Origin: a virus
Lineage: Duplodnaviria > Heunggongvirae > Uroviricota > Caudoviricetes
Virus record (IMG/VR): IMGVR_UViG_3300015157_000027
Location: 1 to 14,389 of that record
Length of the DNA stretch: 14,389 nt
Reading direction: 5' to 3' (one strand)
Shown: in pieces, positions 3,079 through 14,389 of the stretch
How positions within the stretch are numbered: the stretch's first letter is position 1
Layout of the letters: the number at the start of each line of letters is the position of its first letter
Made by a program: the position numbers and the translations under genes
The notes under the pieces: model-generated
What the model was told of the DNA's origin: nothing
Databases searched by the model: none
Seen by the model: only the letters and a program-made list of their open reading frames with translations

Positions 3079-3875
3079 GCTTCAGGGCTGTTCCAGTGCG
3101 GAACGTTGTTATCAGGTAATGTTGATTGCTTCTGTCTGCTAATCTGCAGCCGCCTTGCCAGCTTCTGCTCCCACTGTGCCTGATGGTATGCCTTACCCTC
3201 AGCCATCCAGTAAATTCTGAACTCTGCAAGTTCCTGTGCCGTTGGCAGACTGTCCAGGTAGATCCCCTGCAATGAGCTTTTCCGAAGAAAGTCATCTGAT
3301 GGCTGCCATTGTTCATGCATGACAAATTTGCCTAATTGCCCTGGCCCACCAGGAGGAACAAAGTTATTCATCACGGCGTTGTTTGCGCCGGGGTCATGAT
3401 GCACAGAATCCCCGTTTTTTGTCCTGCTCTCCCTCTCTTGGTTAAATGACTGGTTATATGACTGGTTCTGGATCCCGTTTTTGGGATCATTCAACATCCC
3501 GTTTTTGGGATCATTCAACATCCCGTTTTTGGGTATATTCCCGTTTTCGGTAACATTACCGTTTTCGGGTTCATTGCCCCCCTCTCGGTTGCCTTTAATG
3601 TTCCCGTTTTTGGTTATATTAAGAGAGAAAACCCGCACTCTTTTTGTCGCTCCCTTTCTCTCTCCGGTATCTGAAATAAGCCCCATTTTCATGAGCGATA
3701 TAAGCCCGGCCTGCACGGTTTTTTTATTCAGGCAAGTGTCTTTAACGAGGCGTTCTATGCTGGGGTAGCAGAGGTTATATTCATCGGCTCTGTCAGCCAT
3801 CGAGAGCAGTATGAGCTTTAATGATGAGCTACCTGGATCTGTCTCCCAGGCCCAATCTGTTGCATGTCTGCTCAT
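3060..3875 (-). CDS. Replication initiator, O-like (N-terminal wHTH-like domain, central iteron-encoded repeat linker, C-terminal domain)
   Basis: Sits immediately upstream of, and overlapping, the P-like gene; contains tandem DNA iterons in mid-gene that encode a repeated peptide (PKNGMLND x2 and degenerate NGN repeats), as lambda O contains ori. Protein similarity to lambda O itself is not obvious by eye. Confidence 0.65.
   Translation of the reverse strand: MSRHATDWAWETDPGSSSLKLILLSMADRADEYNLCYPSIERLVKDTCLNKKTVQAGLISLMKMGLISDTGERKGATKRVRVFSLNITKNGNIKGNREGGNEPENGNVTENGNIPKNGMLNDPKNGMLNDPKNGIQNQSYNQSFNQERESRTKNGDSVHHDPGANNAVMNNFVPPGGPGQLGKFVMHEQWQPSDDFLRKSSLQGIYLDSLPTAQELAEFRIYWMAEGKAYHQAQWEQKLARRLQISRQKQSTLPDNNVPHWNSPEAWEDFL
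3471..3620. repeat. Candidate origin iterons: two perfect 24-bp tandem units (ATCCCGTTTTTGGGATCATTCAAC at 3472-3495 and 3496-3519) plus about four degenerate copies of the CCCGTTTT(T/C)GG core
   Basis: Direct reading of the sequence. Core has inverted arms ATCCC...GGGAT. Location inside the initiator gene mirrors lambda ori. Confidence 0.65.
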
Positions 3876-3890
3876 GATTAATCTCCGCTA

Positions 3891-4091
3891 TCAGCTTGAA
3901 TGTTGTGGGGAGGAATTAATCATGATCTGCTTAATCTCTGCCCTGATACGACGGTTTGATTCCATGGTGCACTCAACACAGTGTCCGTTGTAAACCCAGC
4001 GTTCACTGTCATGTCCGTGCTTACATGTTTTTCCGGTGTAGTAGCGTTTAAGTCCGCGCTTTGCGGCATCAATACGTGTAATGATTTCCAT
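3891..4091 (-). CDS. Small zinc-finger-like protein (66 aa) at the cII-equivalent position
   Basis: MEIITRIDAAKRGLKRYYTGKTCKHGHDSERWVYNGHCVECT... with C-x-H-G-H ... H-C-x-E-C spacing. Start chosen at ATG 4091 (RBS-like AACAGGG upstream) rather than the ORF-track start at 4154, whose N-terminal extension looks like read-through of intergenic DNA. Confidence 0.5.
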   Translation of the reverse strand: MEIITRIDAAKRGLKRYYTGKTCKHGHDSERWVYNGHCVECTMESNRRIRAEIKQIMINSSPQHSS

Positions 4092-4171
4092 GGTAAGCCC
4101 TGTTATTAGTATTGGGATTACGGTCATTTTGTGCTGACACAAAAAAAAGATCAACCAGATTTGGTTTTTTA

Positions 4172-4186
4172 TTACCTTTGAGGTAC
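4172..4186. promoter_or_regulatory. Operator-like palindrome TTACC-TTTGA-GGTAC (one half-site mismatch) between the cro terminator and the zinc-finger gene
   Basis: Matches the ATTACC-N5-GGTAAT family; on the minus strand it is followed after 16 bp by TTGATC, a 17-bp spacer and a weak -10 (CAAAAT). Confidence 0.4.
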
Positions 4187-4190
4187 GAAT

Positions 4191-4220
4191 AGATATGAAA
4201 AGACCGCCGGGTGGCGGTCT
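4191..4220 (-). terminator. tR1-like intrinsic terminator downstream of the cro-like gene
   Basis: Stem AGACCGCC / GGCGGTCT (4201-4208 / 4213-4220) with 4-nt loop; on the minus strand the hairpin is followed by UUUCAUAUCU. Confidence 0.55.
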
Positions 4221-4241
4221 ACAGAGGGTTGTAGCTGGATA

Positions 4242-4472
4242 TCATGAGTAGAAGAAGTATGCCAGTTCTGCTTTTGAGCGCAGCCATTGTCTTGATTTAC
4301 AGGCTTTAAAAAGCCCATTCATCAATACTTTACCTGGCATTTTGCGCTTACCTGTTAAGTGAGTCTGGATATAGTGACTCGTCGTTCCGGCTTCCTGTGC
4401 GAAGGCTTCACGCTCATCCGGAGTAAGTGCAAGCCAGTGCTTTTTGAAATCGAAATGTCCGTTATCGCTCAT
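4242..4472 (-). CDS. Cro-like small HTH regulator (76 aa), first gene of the minus-strand early operon
   Basis: Divergent from the repressor gene across an operator-containing intergenic region. Sequence FAQEAGTTSHYIQTHLTGKRKMPGKVL resembles the lambda Cro HTH region ([29 protein letters not shown]) in pattern. Confidence 0.65.
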   Translation of the reverse strand: MSDNGHFDFKKHWLALTPDEREAFAQEAGTTSHYIQTHLTGKRKMPGKVLMNGLFKACKSRQWLRSKAELAYFFYS

Positions 4473-4497
4473 AGCTATTGCCTGATATTTATTTCAG

Positions 4498-4571
4498 ATA
4501 ATAAATATTCACCCATAAGGTAACAAAAATCAAGGATAGTTACCTATGAGGTGCATTTACCTGTTGGGTAA
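4498..4571. promoter_or_regulatory. OR-like switch region: three operator-like palindromes (4509-4523 TCACC-CATAA-GGTAA; 4539-4553 TTACC-TATGA-GGTGC; 4557-4571 TTACC-TGTTG-GGTAA) plus a PR-like promoter for cro
   Basis: Minus-strand promoter: -35 TTGTTA (plus 4521-4526), 17-bp spacer, -10 TATTAT (plus 4498-4503); the first palindrome overlaps the spacer/-35. A PRM-type promoter for the repressor is not clearly resolvable; the repressor ORF has almost no RBS, consistent with a short-leader transcript. Confidence 0.6.
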
Positions 4572-4626
4572 TATTGCTTTAAATTGAATCATCTACTGAT
4601 TCATATATGAGGCGATTTTCCAGAAA

Positions 4627-5211
4627 ATGAAAAGTATCCAGGACGTCCGCAGGCAAAATCTCAACGACTTGATCGACCGTGAATTCAATGGTGTTCAGAC
4701 GCGGATGGCAGAAAAACTTGGAACTCAGGCAAATCTGGTAAACCGCTGGGCTCTTGGCAAGAAGGTTATCGGCGACCAGGTTGCGCGAAAAATTGAAGCT
4801 GCCGCCAATAAACCCCGTAACTGGCTTGATATCGATCGCTCGCTTTCTCAGGAAGGTTTTCAGCCTGTCGGCCCGAGTGATATAGGTCAGCTGGCGGCTC
4901 ACAACCTGGAACGCTGGATGAGCGAAAGCCGCGACCTTTCAACGCAGGGAAAACTACACCGCGCATCCGGCGTCGCCCAGGTGACAATCAGCCGCCTGTT
5001 AAACAATGAGGTCAGCGTTTCCATTTCCACCCTGGAGAATGTTGCATCCGCATTCGGGCGTCACGGATATGAATTACTGATTCACCCGCACGACCCCGCG
5101 ACTATCAACTATGACCGCTCGCGCTACGCATTGTTACCTGAAACAGAGAAGGCAAAGATCGAAAGTTACATTGAATTTGTCATCAACCAGAACGAAAAAA
5201 ACAAACAATAA
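4627..5211 (+). CDS. CI-like prophage repressor composed of two HTH (XRE-type) domains, no recognisable S24/LexA-like autocleavage domain
   Basis: 194 aa; HTH-like segments GVQTRMAEKLGTQANLVNRWALGKK and KLHRASGVAQVTISRLLNNE; no Ala-Gly cleavage site or Ser/Lys dyad region seen. Divergent from cro-like gene and followed by a strong terminator. Confidence 0.75.
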   Translation: MKSIQDVRRQNLNDLIDREFNGVQTRMAEKLGTQANLVNRWALGKKVIGDQVARKIEAAANKPRNWLDIDRSLSQEGFQPVGPSDIGQLAAHNLERWMSESRDLSTQGKLHRASGVAQVTISRLLNNEVSVSISTLENVASAFGRHGYELLIHPHDPATINYDRSRYALLPETEKAKIESYIEFVINQNEKNKQ

Positions 5212-5231
5212 AATCATATTTTTCAGTAAGT

Positions 5232-5258
5232 AAGCCGCCTTATGGCGGCTTTTTTATT
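5232..5258 (+). terminator. Rho-independent terminator after the repressor gene
   Basis: Stem AAGCCGCC / GGCGGCTT with TTAT loop followed by TTTTTATT on the plus strand. Confidence 0.8.
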
Positions 5259-5267
5259 GCCTATTCG

Positions 5268-5345
5268 ATTACCTAACGGGTAATTTTTTTAACTCATATC
5301 TATTGACATCAAACCAGATACGCATAATTATTACCTCAACGGTAA
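5268..5345 (+). promoter_or_regulatory. pL-like early-left promoter with two flanking operators (5269-5283 TTACC-TAACG-GGTAA; 5331-5345 TTACC-TCAAC-GGTAA)
   Basis: Consensus -35 TTGACA at 5303-5308; candidate -10 hexamers CATAAT/TAATTA at 5323-5330; one palindrome lies about 20 bp upstream of the -35 and the other immediately downstream of the -10. Confidence 0.65.
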
Positions 5346-5364
5346 CAGACCGAGGTAACAAGTT

Positions 5365-5517
5365 ATGCAGTGGAAAATCATCAACGGTTGGTACTGCGTT
5401 ACTGCATGCGGATTCATGAGCTGGAAGTTCCGCACCTTACAGGAAGGCATTAAGTGGGCTTTCGTCAGCAAAGAAGCTCGCGATGTAGCCAACGATAACG
5501 AGATATGGGAGGGCTGA
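5365..5517 (+). CDS. Small ORF (50 aa) at the first position of the early-left operon (kil-equivalent position); function unknown
   Basis: Not in the ORF track because it is under 60 aa. ATG at 5365 is preceded by GAGGT at an 8-nt spacing; stop overlaps the next gene start (TGATAATG). Translation MQWKIINGWYCVTACGFMSWKFRTLQEGIKWAFVSKEARDVANDNEIWEG. Confidence 0.4.
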   Translation: MQWKIINGWYCVTACGFMSWKFRTLQEGIKWAFVSKEARDVANDNEIWEG

Positions 5518-5519
5518 TA

Positions 5520-5819
5520 ATGAACGTTAAACAGCAGAAAAATCTTCAAAAAATCATGCTGGCATTCGACAAGGACTACCGCCTGTCAGAACAGCTATAT
5601 GACCGACAAGTTGAACTGATTGAGAGCATCCGACTTCATCAACTGTCCTCAACTTTTGACGTTGTAACAGGCAAAGGCGTTCGTCAGGAAGTACTGGAGG
5701 CTGCTAAAGACAGCCCTGAGTTCGAAGAACTGATGGATGCCTATCGGCGAGAGGCAATGGCAATTATCGCCCGCTGGGATCTGGCGGATCAGCTTGATGG
5801 GCAGAGGGACGCGGCATGA
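5520..5819 (+). CDS. Gam-like protein (99 aa), possible host-nuclease (RecBCD) inhibitor
   Basis: Start taken at ATG 5520 (RBS GGGAGGG) rather than the ORF-track 5505. Same size as lambda GamS and sits directly upstream of the exo/bet analogues; C-terminal DSPEFEELMDAYRREAMAIIA resembles lambda Gam [22 protein letters not shown] by eye. Confidence 0.5.
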   Translation: MNVKQQKNLQKIMLAFDKDYRLSEQLYDRQVELIESIRLHQLSSTFDVVTGKGVRQEVLEAAKDSPEFEELMDAYRREAMAIIARWDLADQLDGQRDAA

Positions 5820-13189: not shown

Positions 13190-14389
13190 TCATAAAATAG
13201 ATTTCGTCTTTGTAACAATAACATCTACAAAATCGCCTGCAGATATAGCTGATGGTACTGTATCTGCAAGAGTAATCTTTCCTGAAGAGATGTTTTGCAC
13301 ATCTAATAATTTATTTTCAACCCCATCCGTATATACCAATTTGACATCACTGAATGGAGGGTAATAAGTGACTGTTCCTTGGTATACATATATTTCACTG
13401 CCTGAAATTGATTTCACTACATACCTGCCCCTTACAAGATTAATTTTGATTTCAGATAAATCGGTTTTATAACAGGTAATTCCTGAACCAATGTTAGCCA
13501 TACTAATATCAGTATCACTATAATAAGTAATTGCTTTTCCTTGTTTTAAGGTGAAGTTATCTTTGCTTTTCCTTGGCAAGGATGTGCTATTTTTGTAATA
13601 TCTACCAGTTAAGCATAGCCATGAAAATGCAGTATTCGCTACATTACCACCAGAATACACAGCTAAACGAATTGCACTAACTGGAACCCCTTCATTATTA
13701 ATCCTGATCTTAATGGAAGAAATGTTAGCAACAGTAGCATATCTATGGTTAGATGAATCCCATTGCATAGAAGAAGTTATTGCTTCTGTTTGTGAAGTTA
13801 TGACATTCCCATCTCCATCTAATGCATACAGGTAAATGCGAAACGATGCCGTATCTGCTGAGAATGTAAACATATCACCATTTCTTACTGGTACATCTCC
13901 AGATTCCCATAACAACCCAAAATTCCGCATAAAAGCAAACTTAGAAGAAACTAGGTGACGGATATTATATAAACCATCTACATCTGTTTGATATGCTAAT
14001 ACACCAACTTCTCCATTGTTGGCACTGGATATAAATGGGGTGTTAGCATTTAAAGAAAACAATGTTACTTCATCGGATATATTTTCCTGAACATGAAATA
14101 CTGCATTCCCCTTGCCATTATCAGTTACCTCTACATAAGTGTAAGGTGATGGATTGTATGGTTCATTTGTATAGTAAGGAGAACTTAACCATGAAGCCTC
14201 AATTGAGTTATTCCACGTATATTCACCAAAGTTAATTATCAACTGTTGGTTAGTTGGGGATGATGGATATCGTTCAAAACGAAACCCGTAGAAGTAATTG
14301 TTATCACCTCTTTGAATATCAATTTTACCTGCCCCCTCCATAGTTCCACCATAAAACTTATTGTGGTTATGATGATATGGATTATCAGC
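13190..14389 (-). CDS. Putative tail fibre / tailspike receptor-binding protein, C-terminal part (N-terminus lies beyond the window)
   Basis: Frame is open from 14389 to the stop at 13190 (the ORF-track start at 14341 is internal). Protein is rich in N/S/T/Y/G as in beta-rich fibre proteins; GC is about 37% versus 50-60% in neighbouring genes; it is the last structural-type gene before the lysis cassette. Function inferred from position and composition only. Confidence 0.45.
   Translation of the reverse strand, partial: ADNPYHHNHNKFYGGTMEGAGKIDIQRGDNNYFYGFRFERYPSSPTNQQLIINFGEYTWNNSIEASWLSSPYYTNEPYNPSPYTYVEVTDNGKGNAVFHVQENISDEVTLFSLNANTPFISSANNGEVGVLAYQTDVDGLYNIRHLVSSKFAFMRNFGLLWESGDVPVRNGDMFTFSADTASFRIYLYALDGDGNVITSQTEAITSSMQWDSSNHRYATVANISSIKIRINNEGVPVSAIRLAVYSGGNVANTAFSWLCLTGRYYKNSTSLPRKSKDNFTLKQGKAITYYSDTDISMANIGSGITCYKTDLSEIKINLVRGRYVVKSISGSEIYVYQGTVTYYPPFSDVKLVYTDGVENKLLDVQNISSGKITLADTVPSAISAGDFVDVIVTKTKSIL

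What the first reader, a model, noticed from the sequence alone, without database searches (positions are those of the whole stretch)
13190..14389. Compositionally foreign (about 37% GC) receptor-binding-type gene
GC drops from roughly 50-60% in the lysis and replication genes to about 37% across the whole visible part of this ORF, indicating recent acquisition from a lower-GC source, as expected for a swapped host-range module. Its function is inferred from position and amino-acid composition only, so it could instead be a different horizontally acquired surface or accessory protein.
Basis: seen in the sequence. Interest (0 to 1): 0.45.

Follow-up and report, generated by a model that had tools for sequence, protein, structure and literature searches.

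The report
Swapped AT-rich phage tailspike receptor module
The AT-rich stretch at the end of the window is the outer, sugar-recognising half of a temperate E. coli phage's tailspike, a host-range cassette that is traded between unrelated phages; this is a well-known kind of feature, although what this version binds is unknown.

Summary
Window 13190-14389 has 35.2% GC (GC3 25%) against 48% for the rest (z = -7). It lies on the minus strand and encodes the C-terminal 399 aa of a ~771-aa tailspike of a Uetakevirus-type (epsilon15/phiV10-like) temperate phage; the window crosses attP.

The same module, from the GAKGDGITDDT motif to the stop codon, sits at 89-99.8% DNA identity behind three other anchors: Uetakevirus, P22-type head-binding and Pollockvirus (N4-like). 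A 47%-identical version occurs in T7-like Vectrevirus. The backbone is in 557 of 5,426 E. coli genomes, the module in 15.

The closest tested relative is Pasteurella phage PHB02 Dep-ORF8 (~34% identity), a putative capsule depolymerase.

The receptor is unresolved. O166 hosts are enriched (3/15, P=1e-5), but eight typed hosts carry at least five O-loci.

Low GC is not unique: two unrelated modules on this backbone have the same GC3, and it matches Pollockvirus core genes. Verdict: ordinary, a new member of a known kind.

The parts
13190..14389 (-). C-terminal 399 codons plus the TGA stop (13190-13192) of a ~771-aa tailspike. These are residues 373-771 of the full-length protein (P0007 numbering; window aa = P0007 aa - 372). 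The gene's 5' half lies beyond the window end.
   Evidence: The frame is open to 14389. PHROG 18162 matches at E=9e-212 over profile positions 403-800 of 800. The full-length 771-aa gene is seen in L001 at 9591-11906. P0007 is 99% identical.
14186..14389 (-). Last rungs of the right-handed parallel beta-helix (P0007 aa 373-440). They carry the most conserved motif of the family, Y-H-H-N-H-N-K-F...T-M-E-G...R-F-E-R. Candidate catalytic or substrate-binding residues: H379 (14369-14371), N382 (14360-14362), E390 (14336-14338), R409 (14279-14281), E411 (14273-14275).
   Evidence: Secondary structure of the AF2 model. N382, E390, R409 and E411 are invariant, and H379 is 96-97% conserved, in 64 full-length homologues of median 31% identity and in the 60-sequence alignment A4.
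13586..14134 (-). First post-helix beta-sandwich domain (P0007 aa 458-640). It has conserved D462, N467, R556 and D563. Its function is not established; glycan binding or trimer packing is inferred.
13193..13543 (-). C-terminal beta-barrel or sandwich domain (P0007 aa 655-771).
   Evidence: AF2 pLDDT is ~90. It is present in most full-length family members (profile coverage reaches ~position 593-600 of 601). It has no informative solved relative.
12871..13155 (-). Small 94-aa predicted membrane protein directly downstream of the tailspike (phrog_1443, function unknown). Its 5' two-thirds (12916-13155) are co-transferred with the RBD into some P22-type prophages.
   Evidence: PHROG hit at E=1.4e-54. 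Annotated as a 94-aa CDS in L001 and L002. DNA shared between L001 and L002 runs down to window 12916. No Pfam or NCBIfam family.
10837..12661 (-). Lysis cassette downstream of the tailspike, as context: holin (12245-12661), holin (11950-12258), GH19 endolysin (11331-11960) and Rz-like spanin (10837-11334). GC is 45-55%.
   Evidence: Pfam and PHROG hits. GC per gene. Phage phiv142-3 (Uetakevirus) has the same gene order.
9292..10733 (-). Integrase (9292-10542) and the attP region (about 10600-10733), as context. The window is the unintegrated, circular-form phage junction.
   Evidence: Homology to the integrated prophage's lysis end starts at window 10733. Window 9000-10732 maps 40.5 kb away at the other prophage end in AST20. 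Integrase domains.

Best explanation
The feature is the distal half of the receptor-binding module of a tailspike.

Architecture. The full protein (~771 aa) has a Uetakevirus-specific N-terminal anchor of ~200 aa that fixes it to the tail. This anchor lies outside the window. A ~570-aa module follows, beginning at the GAKGDGITDDT cap motif. It consists of a short right-handed parallel beta-helix, then two beta-sandwich domains.

Mechanism (inferred). The spike, presumably a trimer, binds a surface polysaccharide of E. coli and cleaves it. That lets the short-tailed virion work down to the outer membrane. The cleavage site is predicted on the last helix rungs, where E359, E390 and E411 with R409, Y336, N382 and H379 are invariant or nearly so across the family. 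Several of these residues are encoded at 14273-14371.

Origin. The module is a mobile cassette. It recombines at the cap motif upstream, and either at the stop codon or inside the small downstream ORF. This has placed it on Uetakevirus, P22-type and Pollockvirus (N4-like) backbones. Its AT-richness matches AT-rich virulent coliphages, which are its likely compositional home.

Shown: the composition step, gene identity, modular mosaic, fold class and conservation pattern. Inferred: enzymatic activity, trimer state, which glycan is bound, and the direction of transfer.
For: Composition and junction:
- Window part: GC 35.2%, GC3 25%, z=-7.
- In L001 the anchor is 46% GC and the module 36.4%.

Identity as a tailspike:
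- PHROG 18162 'tail fiber protein' at E=9e-212.
- The anchor (aa 1-179) is homologous to the anchors of the solved depolymerase tailspikes Dpo31/Dpo36, E=4e-35.
- Residues 1-214 are nearly identical to the Uetakevirus phiv142-3 tail fibre, and unrelated after that.

Mosaic:
- The last 579 aa are 97% identical in a protein with a PF09008 P22 head-binding N-terminus.
- DNA shared between the two prophage types is L001 9317-11297, 97.8%.
- The Pollockvirus version is 89-92% nt identical with the same upstream junction.
- Vectrevirus and T7-like versions are 46-47% aa identical.
- The backbone is in 557 genomes, the module in 15.

Fold:
- The AF2 model is confident over residues 196-771.
- Top Foldseek hits are tailspike depolymerases: DpK2, Det7 gp208, K2-2 TSP, Depo32, CBA120 TSP4, E~1e-7.

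Catalysis:
- Invariant Y336, N382, E390, R409, E411 and >=96% conserved E359, H379, N380, N403 in 64 homologues of median 31% identity.

Functional precedent:
- PHB02 gp17 is Dep-ORF8; the published primers map exactly to it.
- It aligns at 33.7% identity over 99% of the window protein.
- The recombinant protein made translucent spots on 31 of 31 capsular type A P. multocida strains and not on capsule-deficient mutants (PMC6090149).

Framework:
- Anchor/RBD modularity and cross-genus HGT of E. coli tailspikes are established (PMC10408124).

Composition source:
- Pollockvirus core genes have GC 33-41% and GC3 18-34%.
Against: - No direct evidence of enzymatic activity or of the receptor for this protein.
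- The only Pfam hit (PF12708) is below threshold and covers just the cap motif.
- No solved structure is a sequence relative of the catalytic rungs or the C-terminal domains, even with a family profile.
- The structural models are monomer predictions from a 17-sequence alignment. The three conserved glutamates were not shown to be spatially adjacent, because coordinates could not be inspected.
- Host serotypes do not point to one O-antigen. The eight typed hosts are O166 (3), O99 (2), O17/O44/O73/O77/O106 group (1), O120 (1) and an unnamed rml+wecB locus (1).
- The direction of transfer (virulent to temperate phage) rests on composition only.
Confidence: 0.9

Rival explanations
1. It is a tailspike module as described, and it is specific for one O-antigen, O166. 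The non-O166 hosts would then reflect replacement of the O-antigen locus after lysogeny.
For: - O166 wzx-wzy is present in 18 of 5,426 genomes and the module in 15. The overlap is 3 (AST20, JNE070796, AST240), expected 0.05, hypergeometric P=1.4e-5.
- The three O166 hosts carry it on two different prophage types, which suggests independent acquisitions.
- Uetake- and Lederbergvirus prophage RBPs usually match the host's O-serogroup (PMC10408124).
Against: - Five of the eight typed hosts are not O166.
- Modules >=99.5% identical to the window occur in O99 (E-1246, fS10a) and O17/O77-group (PS_131_S11) hosts.
- PS_131_S11 acquired the module twice, on two prophages.
- The same 95.0% variant is in AST240 (O166) and in 100117 (an unnamed O-locus).
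- The three O166 strains are all from Japan, so sampling may be clonal.
Confidence: 0.25
2. It is a tailspike module whose receptor is a glycan other than the O-antigen, shared across serogroups. Candidates are a K-type capsule, enterobacterial common antigen, colanic acid or an LPS core structure. It may act as a lyase on an acidic polymer.
For: - At least five O-locus types among eight hosts carry near-identical modules.
- Pas et al. list several E. coli RBP subtypes, including that of Uetakevirus phiv142-3, found across serogroups, and suggest a non-O-antigen receptor (PMC10408124).
- The only tested homologue acts on a capsule (PMC6090149).
Against: - From my own knowledge, characterised Uetake- and P22-type tailspikes target O-antigens.
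- No capsule or other shared locus was examined in the hosts.
- At 34% identity to Dep-ORF8, substrate specificity is unlikely to be conserved.
- Conserved glutamates suit a hydrolase at least as well as a lyase.
Confidence: 0.3
3. The low GC is not a sign of foreign origin. It would result from the amino-acid composition of beta-helix and beta-sandwich proteins (rich in N, I, Y, K, S, T), or from local selection.
For: - The protein is rich in Asn, Ile, Tyr, Ser and Thr.
- GC1 is also depressed, at 40.5% against 52-63% in the neighbours.
- Unrelated RBDs on the same backbone have the same low GC.
Against: - The strongest drop is at synonymous third positions: GC3 is 25% against 39-57% in the neighbours.
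- A 43%-identical homologue (P0004) has 50.7% GC and GC3 57%, and the PAR RBD on the same backbone has 46% GC. The fold therefore does not require AT-richness.
- The GC step coincides with a recombination junction.
Confidence: 0.07
4. It is not a virion receptor-binding protein. It would instead be another horizontally acquired surface or accessory protein, a moron, as in the reader's fallback.
For: - RefSeq annotates the 771-aa protein as 'hypothetical protein'.
- No Pfam or NCBIfam family covers the visible part.
Against: - It is fused in frame to genus-specific tail-anchor domains in four phage lineages.
- It occupies the tailspike slot in each genome.
- It has a tailspike beta-helix fold and a PHROG tail-fibre assignment.
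Confidence: 0.02

Closest known systems
Pasteurella phage vB_PmuP_PHB02 gp17 (Dep-ORF8), a putative capsule depolymerase
   Same: It is the closest experimentally tested sequence relative, at 33.7% identity over 99% of the 399 visible residues. It is likewise the C-terminal part of a podovirus tail fibre or spike. The recombinant protein acts on the host's surface polysaccharide (PMC6090149).
   Different: The host is P. multocida capsular type A and the backbone is T7-like, with a 968-aa protein. Identity is too low to transfer substrate specificity. The chemistry of Dep-ORF8 itself (hydrolase or lyase) was not determined in that paper.
Uetakevirus tailspikes (epsilon15 / phiV10 / phiv142-3 type)
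   Same: The backbone, gene order and N-terminal anchor are the same. Residues 1-214 are nearly identical to phiv142-3 Orf6. The anchor length agrees with the 205-aa phiV10 anchor used by Pas et al..
   Different: The RBD beyond the GAKGDGITDDT motif is unrelated to that of phiv142-3. The phiV10 and epsilon15 RBDs were not compared directly here.
P22-like (Lederbergvirus) tailspikes such as P22, Sf6 and HK620
   Same: The architecture is the same: a head-binding anchor followed by a beta-helix RBD. This very RBD is found fused to a PF09008 head-binding domain in 9 E. coli genomes. Sf6 and HK620 spikes are weaker structural matches.
   Different: There is no sequence similarity of the RBD to the P22, Sf6 or HK620 RBDs beyond the cap motif. 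The beta-helix is shorter (~245 aa) and is followed by two beta-sandwich domains.
Solved beta-helix depolymerase tailspikes: Depo32 and DpK2 (Klebsiella K2), Det7 gp208, CBA120 TSP1/2/4, Phi92 gp150 colanidase, K5 lyase
Cross-genus RBD exchange in E. coli phages (Pas et al. 2023, PMC10408124)
   Same: This is the same phenomenon: a conserved anchor and a horizontally exchanged RBD shared between temperate and virulent genera. Some subtypes are spread over several serogroups.
   Different: This RBD subtype, and serogroups O166, O99 and O120, do not appear in the main text of that study. Here the junction for temperate phages falls on the GAKGDGITDDT-coding stretch, whereas the conserved DNA motifs they report were found only in lytic genera.

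Membership tests
Modular phage tailspike / receptor-binding protein (anchor + RBD) | An N-terminal anchor domain conserved within a phage genus, fused to an exchangeable C-terminal module | tested here: met
   Residues 1-214 are nearly identical to Uetakevirus phiv142-3 Orf6 and unrelated after that. The same C-terminal 579 aa follow a PF09008 head-binding domain and a PF18668 N-terminus in a Pollockvirus. The anchor lies outside the window.
Modular phage tailspike / receptor-binding protein (anchor + RBD) | Right-handed parallel beta-helix (pectin-lyase-like) core | tested here: met
Modular phage tailspike / receptor-binding protein (anchor + RBD) | Encoded at the tailspike position of the virion-gene cluster | tested here: met
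   Same slot and gene order as phiv142-3, L001, the P22-type L002 next to a DNA transfer protein gene, and the second tail-spike slot of Pollock.
Modular phage tailspike / receptor-binding protein (anchor + RBD) | Homotrimeric assembly on the virion | not testable with these tools
   Only monomer predictions were available.
Tailspike depolymerase (enzymatically active RBP) | Conserved acidic or basic catalytic residues on the beta-helix | tested here: inconclusive
   E390, E411, R409, Y336 and N382 are invariant, and E359 and H379 are >=96% conserved, in 64 homologues. Their spatial clustering and roles were not verified.
Tailspike depolymerase (enzymatically active RBP) | Demonstrated cleavage of a host surface polysaccharide | not testable with these tools
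   The only evidence is indirect: the homologue PHB02 Dep-ORF8 (~34% identity) produces translucent spots on encapsulated hosts (PMC6090149).
PHROG 18162 (tail fiber protein) | Significant full-length match to the family profile | tested here: met
   E=9e-212, 706 bits, protein 1-399 against profile positions 403-800 of 800.
Pfam PF12708 (Pect-lyase_RHGA_epim) | Score above the gathering threshold of 27 bits | tested here: not met
   20.6 bits, covering only residues 198-221, the cap motif outside the window. The 399 visible residues have no Pfam or NCBIfam hit.
Serogroup-specific O-antigen RBP subtype (sensu Pas et al. 2023) | Hosts and lysogens carrying the subtype share one O-serogroup | tested here: not met
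   Eight of 15 hosts were typed: O166 x3, O99 x2, O17/O44/O73/O77/O106 group x1, O120 x1, unnamed x1. O166 is nevertheless enriched (P=1.4e-5).
Horizontally acquired, compositionally foreign segment | A composition step, including synonymous sites, that coincides with a mosaic junction | tested here: met
   GC3 is 41.7% in the anchor and 27.9% in the module, and 24.7% in the window part. The junction at L001 11297 is the same against L002 and L023.
Horizontally acquired, compositionally foreign segment | An identifiable donor with matching composition | tested here: inconclusive
   A Pollockvirus contig carries the module at ~90% nt identity, and its core genes have GC 33-41% and GC3 18-34%. 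The direction of transfer was not established.

The most novel reading that the evidence does not exclude
This receptor module recognises a surface glycan that is independent of O-serogroup. That would explain near-identical copies in prophages of O166, O99, O120, O17/O77-group and untyped hosts, and two copies in one strain. It would give temperate podoviruses a serotype-independent entry route. A related reading is that AT-rich RBD cassettes on temperate coliphages (GC3 ~26% in three unrelated modules on one backbone) are drawn one-way from a pool kept in AT-rich virulent phages such as Pollockvirus.
Probability: 0.25. Interest if true: 0.5.

Novelty: new member of a known kind. Interest (0 to 1): 0.25.

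Why it matters
Tailspike receptor modules decide which strains a phage can infect. They are the parts used to retarget phages, tailocins and diagnostic probes.

This module belongs to a large family: 2,668 cluster representatives at E<=0.001. The family has no curated Pfam or NCBIfam model and no solved structure, and RefSeq labels this protein 'hypothetical'.

The work here gives it:
- a fold;
- a domain map;
- a short list of invariant residues to mutate;
- a tested distant relative;
- four phage backbones on which it functions.

The last point is useful for engineering. It also flags the module as one of the E. coli RBD subtypes whose host distribution does not follow a single O-serogroup. 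As biology it is an expected example of tailspike modularity and does not represent a new mechanism.

Tried and rejected
1. Curated families. Pfam, NCBIfam and PDB sequence searches on the visible 399 aa returned nothing. A 60-sequence family profile against the PDB hit only the N-terminal cap motif of pectin-lyase-like proteins, so it gave no clue to hydrolase versus lyase.

3. One module, one O-antigen. I located the O-loci of eight host genomes. The hypothesis is rejected as a simple rule because at least five O-locus types were found, though O166 is enriched. Seven hosts were not typed.

4. The known O77 subtype. PS_131_S11 is in the O17/O77 group, so I asked whether this was the CBA120 TSP3 subtype. 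It is not: similarity is confined to the cap motif.

5. Pasteurella phages or another low-GC bacterium's phages as donor. I consider this unlikely, because identity is only ~34% and PHB02 gp17 is 40-42% GC.

6. Literature. 'PDP21', for the host of the Vectrevirus homologues, returned only noise. O166 with tailspike gave only a reference-list mention. 'Tailspike' with 'lower GC content' gave nothing specific.

7. Prophage of O6:H16 strain M9682-C1. The fetched stretch missed the prophage, which is shorter than expected.

Full report
**Observation**

The composition claim is correct. Window 13190-14389 is 35.2% GC, with GC1 40.5, GC2 40.3 and GC3 25.0. The rest of the window is 48.2%. All 400-nt windows from 13201 onward are 33-37%. 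Against 120 other 1,200-nt windows (mean 48.3%, SD 1.9, minimum 43.2) the feature is at z = -7.0.

The ORF is on the minus strand. Its stop codon is at 13190-13192 and the frame stays open to the window edge. The ORF lister shows only an internal ATG at 14341. The window therefore holds 399 C-terminal codons of a longer gene.

**Genomic context**

The window is an unintegrated temperate phage genome that crosses attP. Its content is:
- P-like helicase loader and O-like replication initiator, a cI-type repressor, RecE/RecT and a methyltransferase;
- integrase at 9292-10542;
- Rz, GH19 endolysin and two holins;
- a small membrane ORF;
- the AT-rich gene.

Homology to an integrated copy in E. coli AST20 (L001) starts at window 10733. 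The integrase side maps 40.5 kb away in the same genome. Phage phiv142-3 shares the lysis cassette and gene order and is classified as Uetakevirus, the epsilon15/phiV10 genus.

**Identity of the gene**

- The 399 aa match PHROG 18162 'tail fiber protein' at E=9e-212, over positions 403-800 of an 800-position profile.
- The full gene in L001 encodes 771 aa and RefSeq annotates it 'hypothetical protein'.
- Residues 1-179 are homologous to the anchors of the solved depolymerase tailspikes Dpo31/Dpo36, E=4e-35.
- Residues 1-214 are nearly identical to the phiv142-3 tail fibre, and similarity then stops.
- There is no Pfam or NCBIfam family for the visible part. The only Pfam signal is a sub-threshold PF12708 hit on the GAKGDGITDDT cap motif.

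**A mobile module**

- In nine E. coli genomes the last 579 aa are 97% identical but follow a PF09008 P22-type head-binding domain.
- DNA shared between the two prophage types is L001 9317-11297, at 97.8%. That covers tailspike residues ~203-771 plus most of the small downstream ORF.
- In four other genomes the downstream junction is at the stop codon instead.
- A contig 97.7% identical to phage Pollock (Schitoviridae, Pollockvirus) carries the module at 89-92% nt identity in its second tail-spike slot. The upstream junction is the same.
- T7-like Vectrevirus phages carry a 46-47% identical version.
- The Uetakevirus-type backbone is in 557 of 5,426 complete E. coli genomes, and the module is in only 15.

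This matches the anchor/RBD modularity and cross-genus exchange described for E. coli tailspikes (PMC10408124).

**Fold and likely chemistry**

The window part comprises:
- the last helix rungs (aa 373-440);
- a beta-sandwich domain (aa 458-640);
- a C-terminal beta domain (aa 655-771).

The wider family is large, with 2,668 representatives at E<=0.001. Across 64 full-length homologues of median 31% identity, Y336, N382, E390, R409 and E411 are invariant, and E359, H379, N380 and N403 are at least 96% conserved. I infer that these residues form the catalytic or substrate site. Several are encoded at 14273-14371. A family profile still reaches PDB entries only through the cap motif, so hydrolase versus lyase stays open.

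**Closest tested relative**

tblastn against phage genomes finds Pasteurella multocida phages at 33-34% identity over 99% of the query. The hit in PHB02 is gp17. The published Dep-ORF8 primers map exactly to its ends. The recombinant protein produced translucent spots on 31 of 31 capsular type A strains and not on capsule-deficient mutants (PMC6090149). This supports a polysaccharide-degrading role for the family, but it does not identify the E. coli substrate.

**Receptor**

I tested whether the lysogens share an O-antigen.
- AST20 carries O166 wzx and wzy.
- O166 is present in 18 genomes and three of them carry the module (expected 0.05, P=1.4e-5).
- Other hosts differ: the O17/O44/O73/O77/O106 group (PS_131_S11, which has two copies), O99 (E-1246 and fS10a), O120 (S87) and an unnamed rml+wecB locus (100117).
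- Modules at least 99.5% identical occur in three of these O-types.

Either the O-loci were replaced after lysogeny, or the receptor is not the O-antigen. Pas et al. report the same pattern for several E. coli RBP subtypes, including that of phiv142-3. The receptor is unresolved.

**Origin of the low GC**

- The GC step coincides with the module junction: anchor 46.0% (GC3 41.7), module 36.4% (GC3 27.9).
- Third positions carry most of the signal. In addition, a 43%-identical homologue has 50.7% GC. Amino-acid composition alone therefore does not explain the drop.
- The property is not unique. On the same backbone, the unrelated RBDs of phiv142-3 and of strain B19429 have GC 36% and GC3 ~26%, while strain PAR's RBD has 46%.
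- In the Pollockvirus contig the module is not foreign. Core genes there, and in phage Pollock, have GC 33-41% and GC3 18-34%.

AT-rich virulent coliphages are therefore a more likely compositional home than a phage of a low-GC bacterium. The direction of transfer remains an inference.

**Verdict**

This is a new, uncharacterised member of a well-known kind, an exchangeable beta-helix tailspike receptor module. Interest is modest.

Noticed in passing
window 9292-10733: The window crosses attP and so represents the circular or unintegrated form of a ~40.5-kb Uetakevirus-type phage. In strain AST20 the same phage is integrated next to yfgI, with the lysis end at ~2,864,961 and the integrase end at 2,905,446. 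The integrase-side sequence is present in 557 of 5,426 complete E. coli genomes.
   Followed up: yes
window 12871-13155 (minus strand): A 94-aa predicted membrane protein (phrog_1443, no Pfam or NCBIfam family) sits directly behind the tailspike. It is partly co-transferred with the RBD into P22-type prophages; the shared DNA reaches window 12916. It also occurs at ~90-93% nt identity in many lambdoid phages. It is a candidate superinfection-exclusion or receptor-modifying moron, but its function is unknown.
   Followed up: partly
NZ_CP145099.1 (E. coli PS_131_S11), ~4.916 Mb and ~3.352 Mb: One strain carries the same RBD twice: on a Uetakevirus-type prophage at yfgI and on a P22-type prophage (99.8% identical to the window). 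Its O-locus belongs to the O17/O44/O73/O77/O106 family.
   Followed up: partly
L019 2524-4653; L022 5082-7688; L020 5484-8255: Unrelated RBDs on the same Uetakevirus-type backbone show the same AT-richness: phiv142-3 RBD at GC 36.2% and GC3 25.6%, and the B19429 SGNH-hydrolase RBD at GC 35.9% and GC3 26.2%. The PAR RBD does not (GC 46%). Low GC3 looks like a recurrent property of RBD cassettes.
   Followed up: partly
L023 777-3050 (Logan SRR6474912 contig, 59.7 kb): A Pollockvirus (N4-like, 97.7% identical to phage Pollock over portal to capsid) carries this RBD at ~90% nt identity in its second tail-spike slot. The surrounding core genes have the same low GC (33-41%, GC3 18-34%).
   Followed up: yes
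P0001 (Escherichia marmotae, 668 aa): A copy of the tailspike in E. marmotae diverges into unrelated sequence after '...GRYYKNS' and ends early. This looks like a frameshift or disruption of the C-terminal domain.
   Followed up: no
L010/L012 (E. coli E-1246, 2,566,275-2,571,117) and L013 (fS10a): The O99-family O-antigen locus of these hosts has four extra genes next to gnd: a UbiA-family prenyltransferase, an SMR transporter, an epimerase/dehydratase and a DUF7024 protein. No wzzB is annotated between hisIE and ugd. This may be a glycan-modification module.
   Followed up: no
L020 4414-5559 (E. coli PAR prophage): A 381-aa plus-strand hypothetical ORF lies between the holin and the tailspike and overlaps the tailspike's 3' end by ~75 nt. 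This is the position where some Uetake- and Lederbergviruses carry O-antigen-modification genes.
   Followed up: no
window 3800-4800, 5000-5600 and 10400-11000: There are milder GC dips, to 41-43%, around the repressor/immunity region and the attP region. None comes near the 35% of the tailspike module.
   Followed up: no
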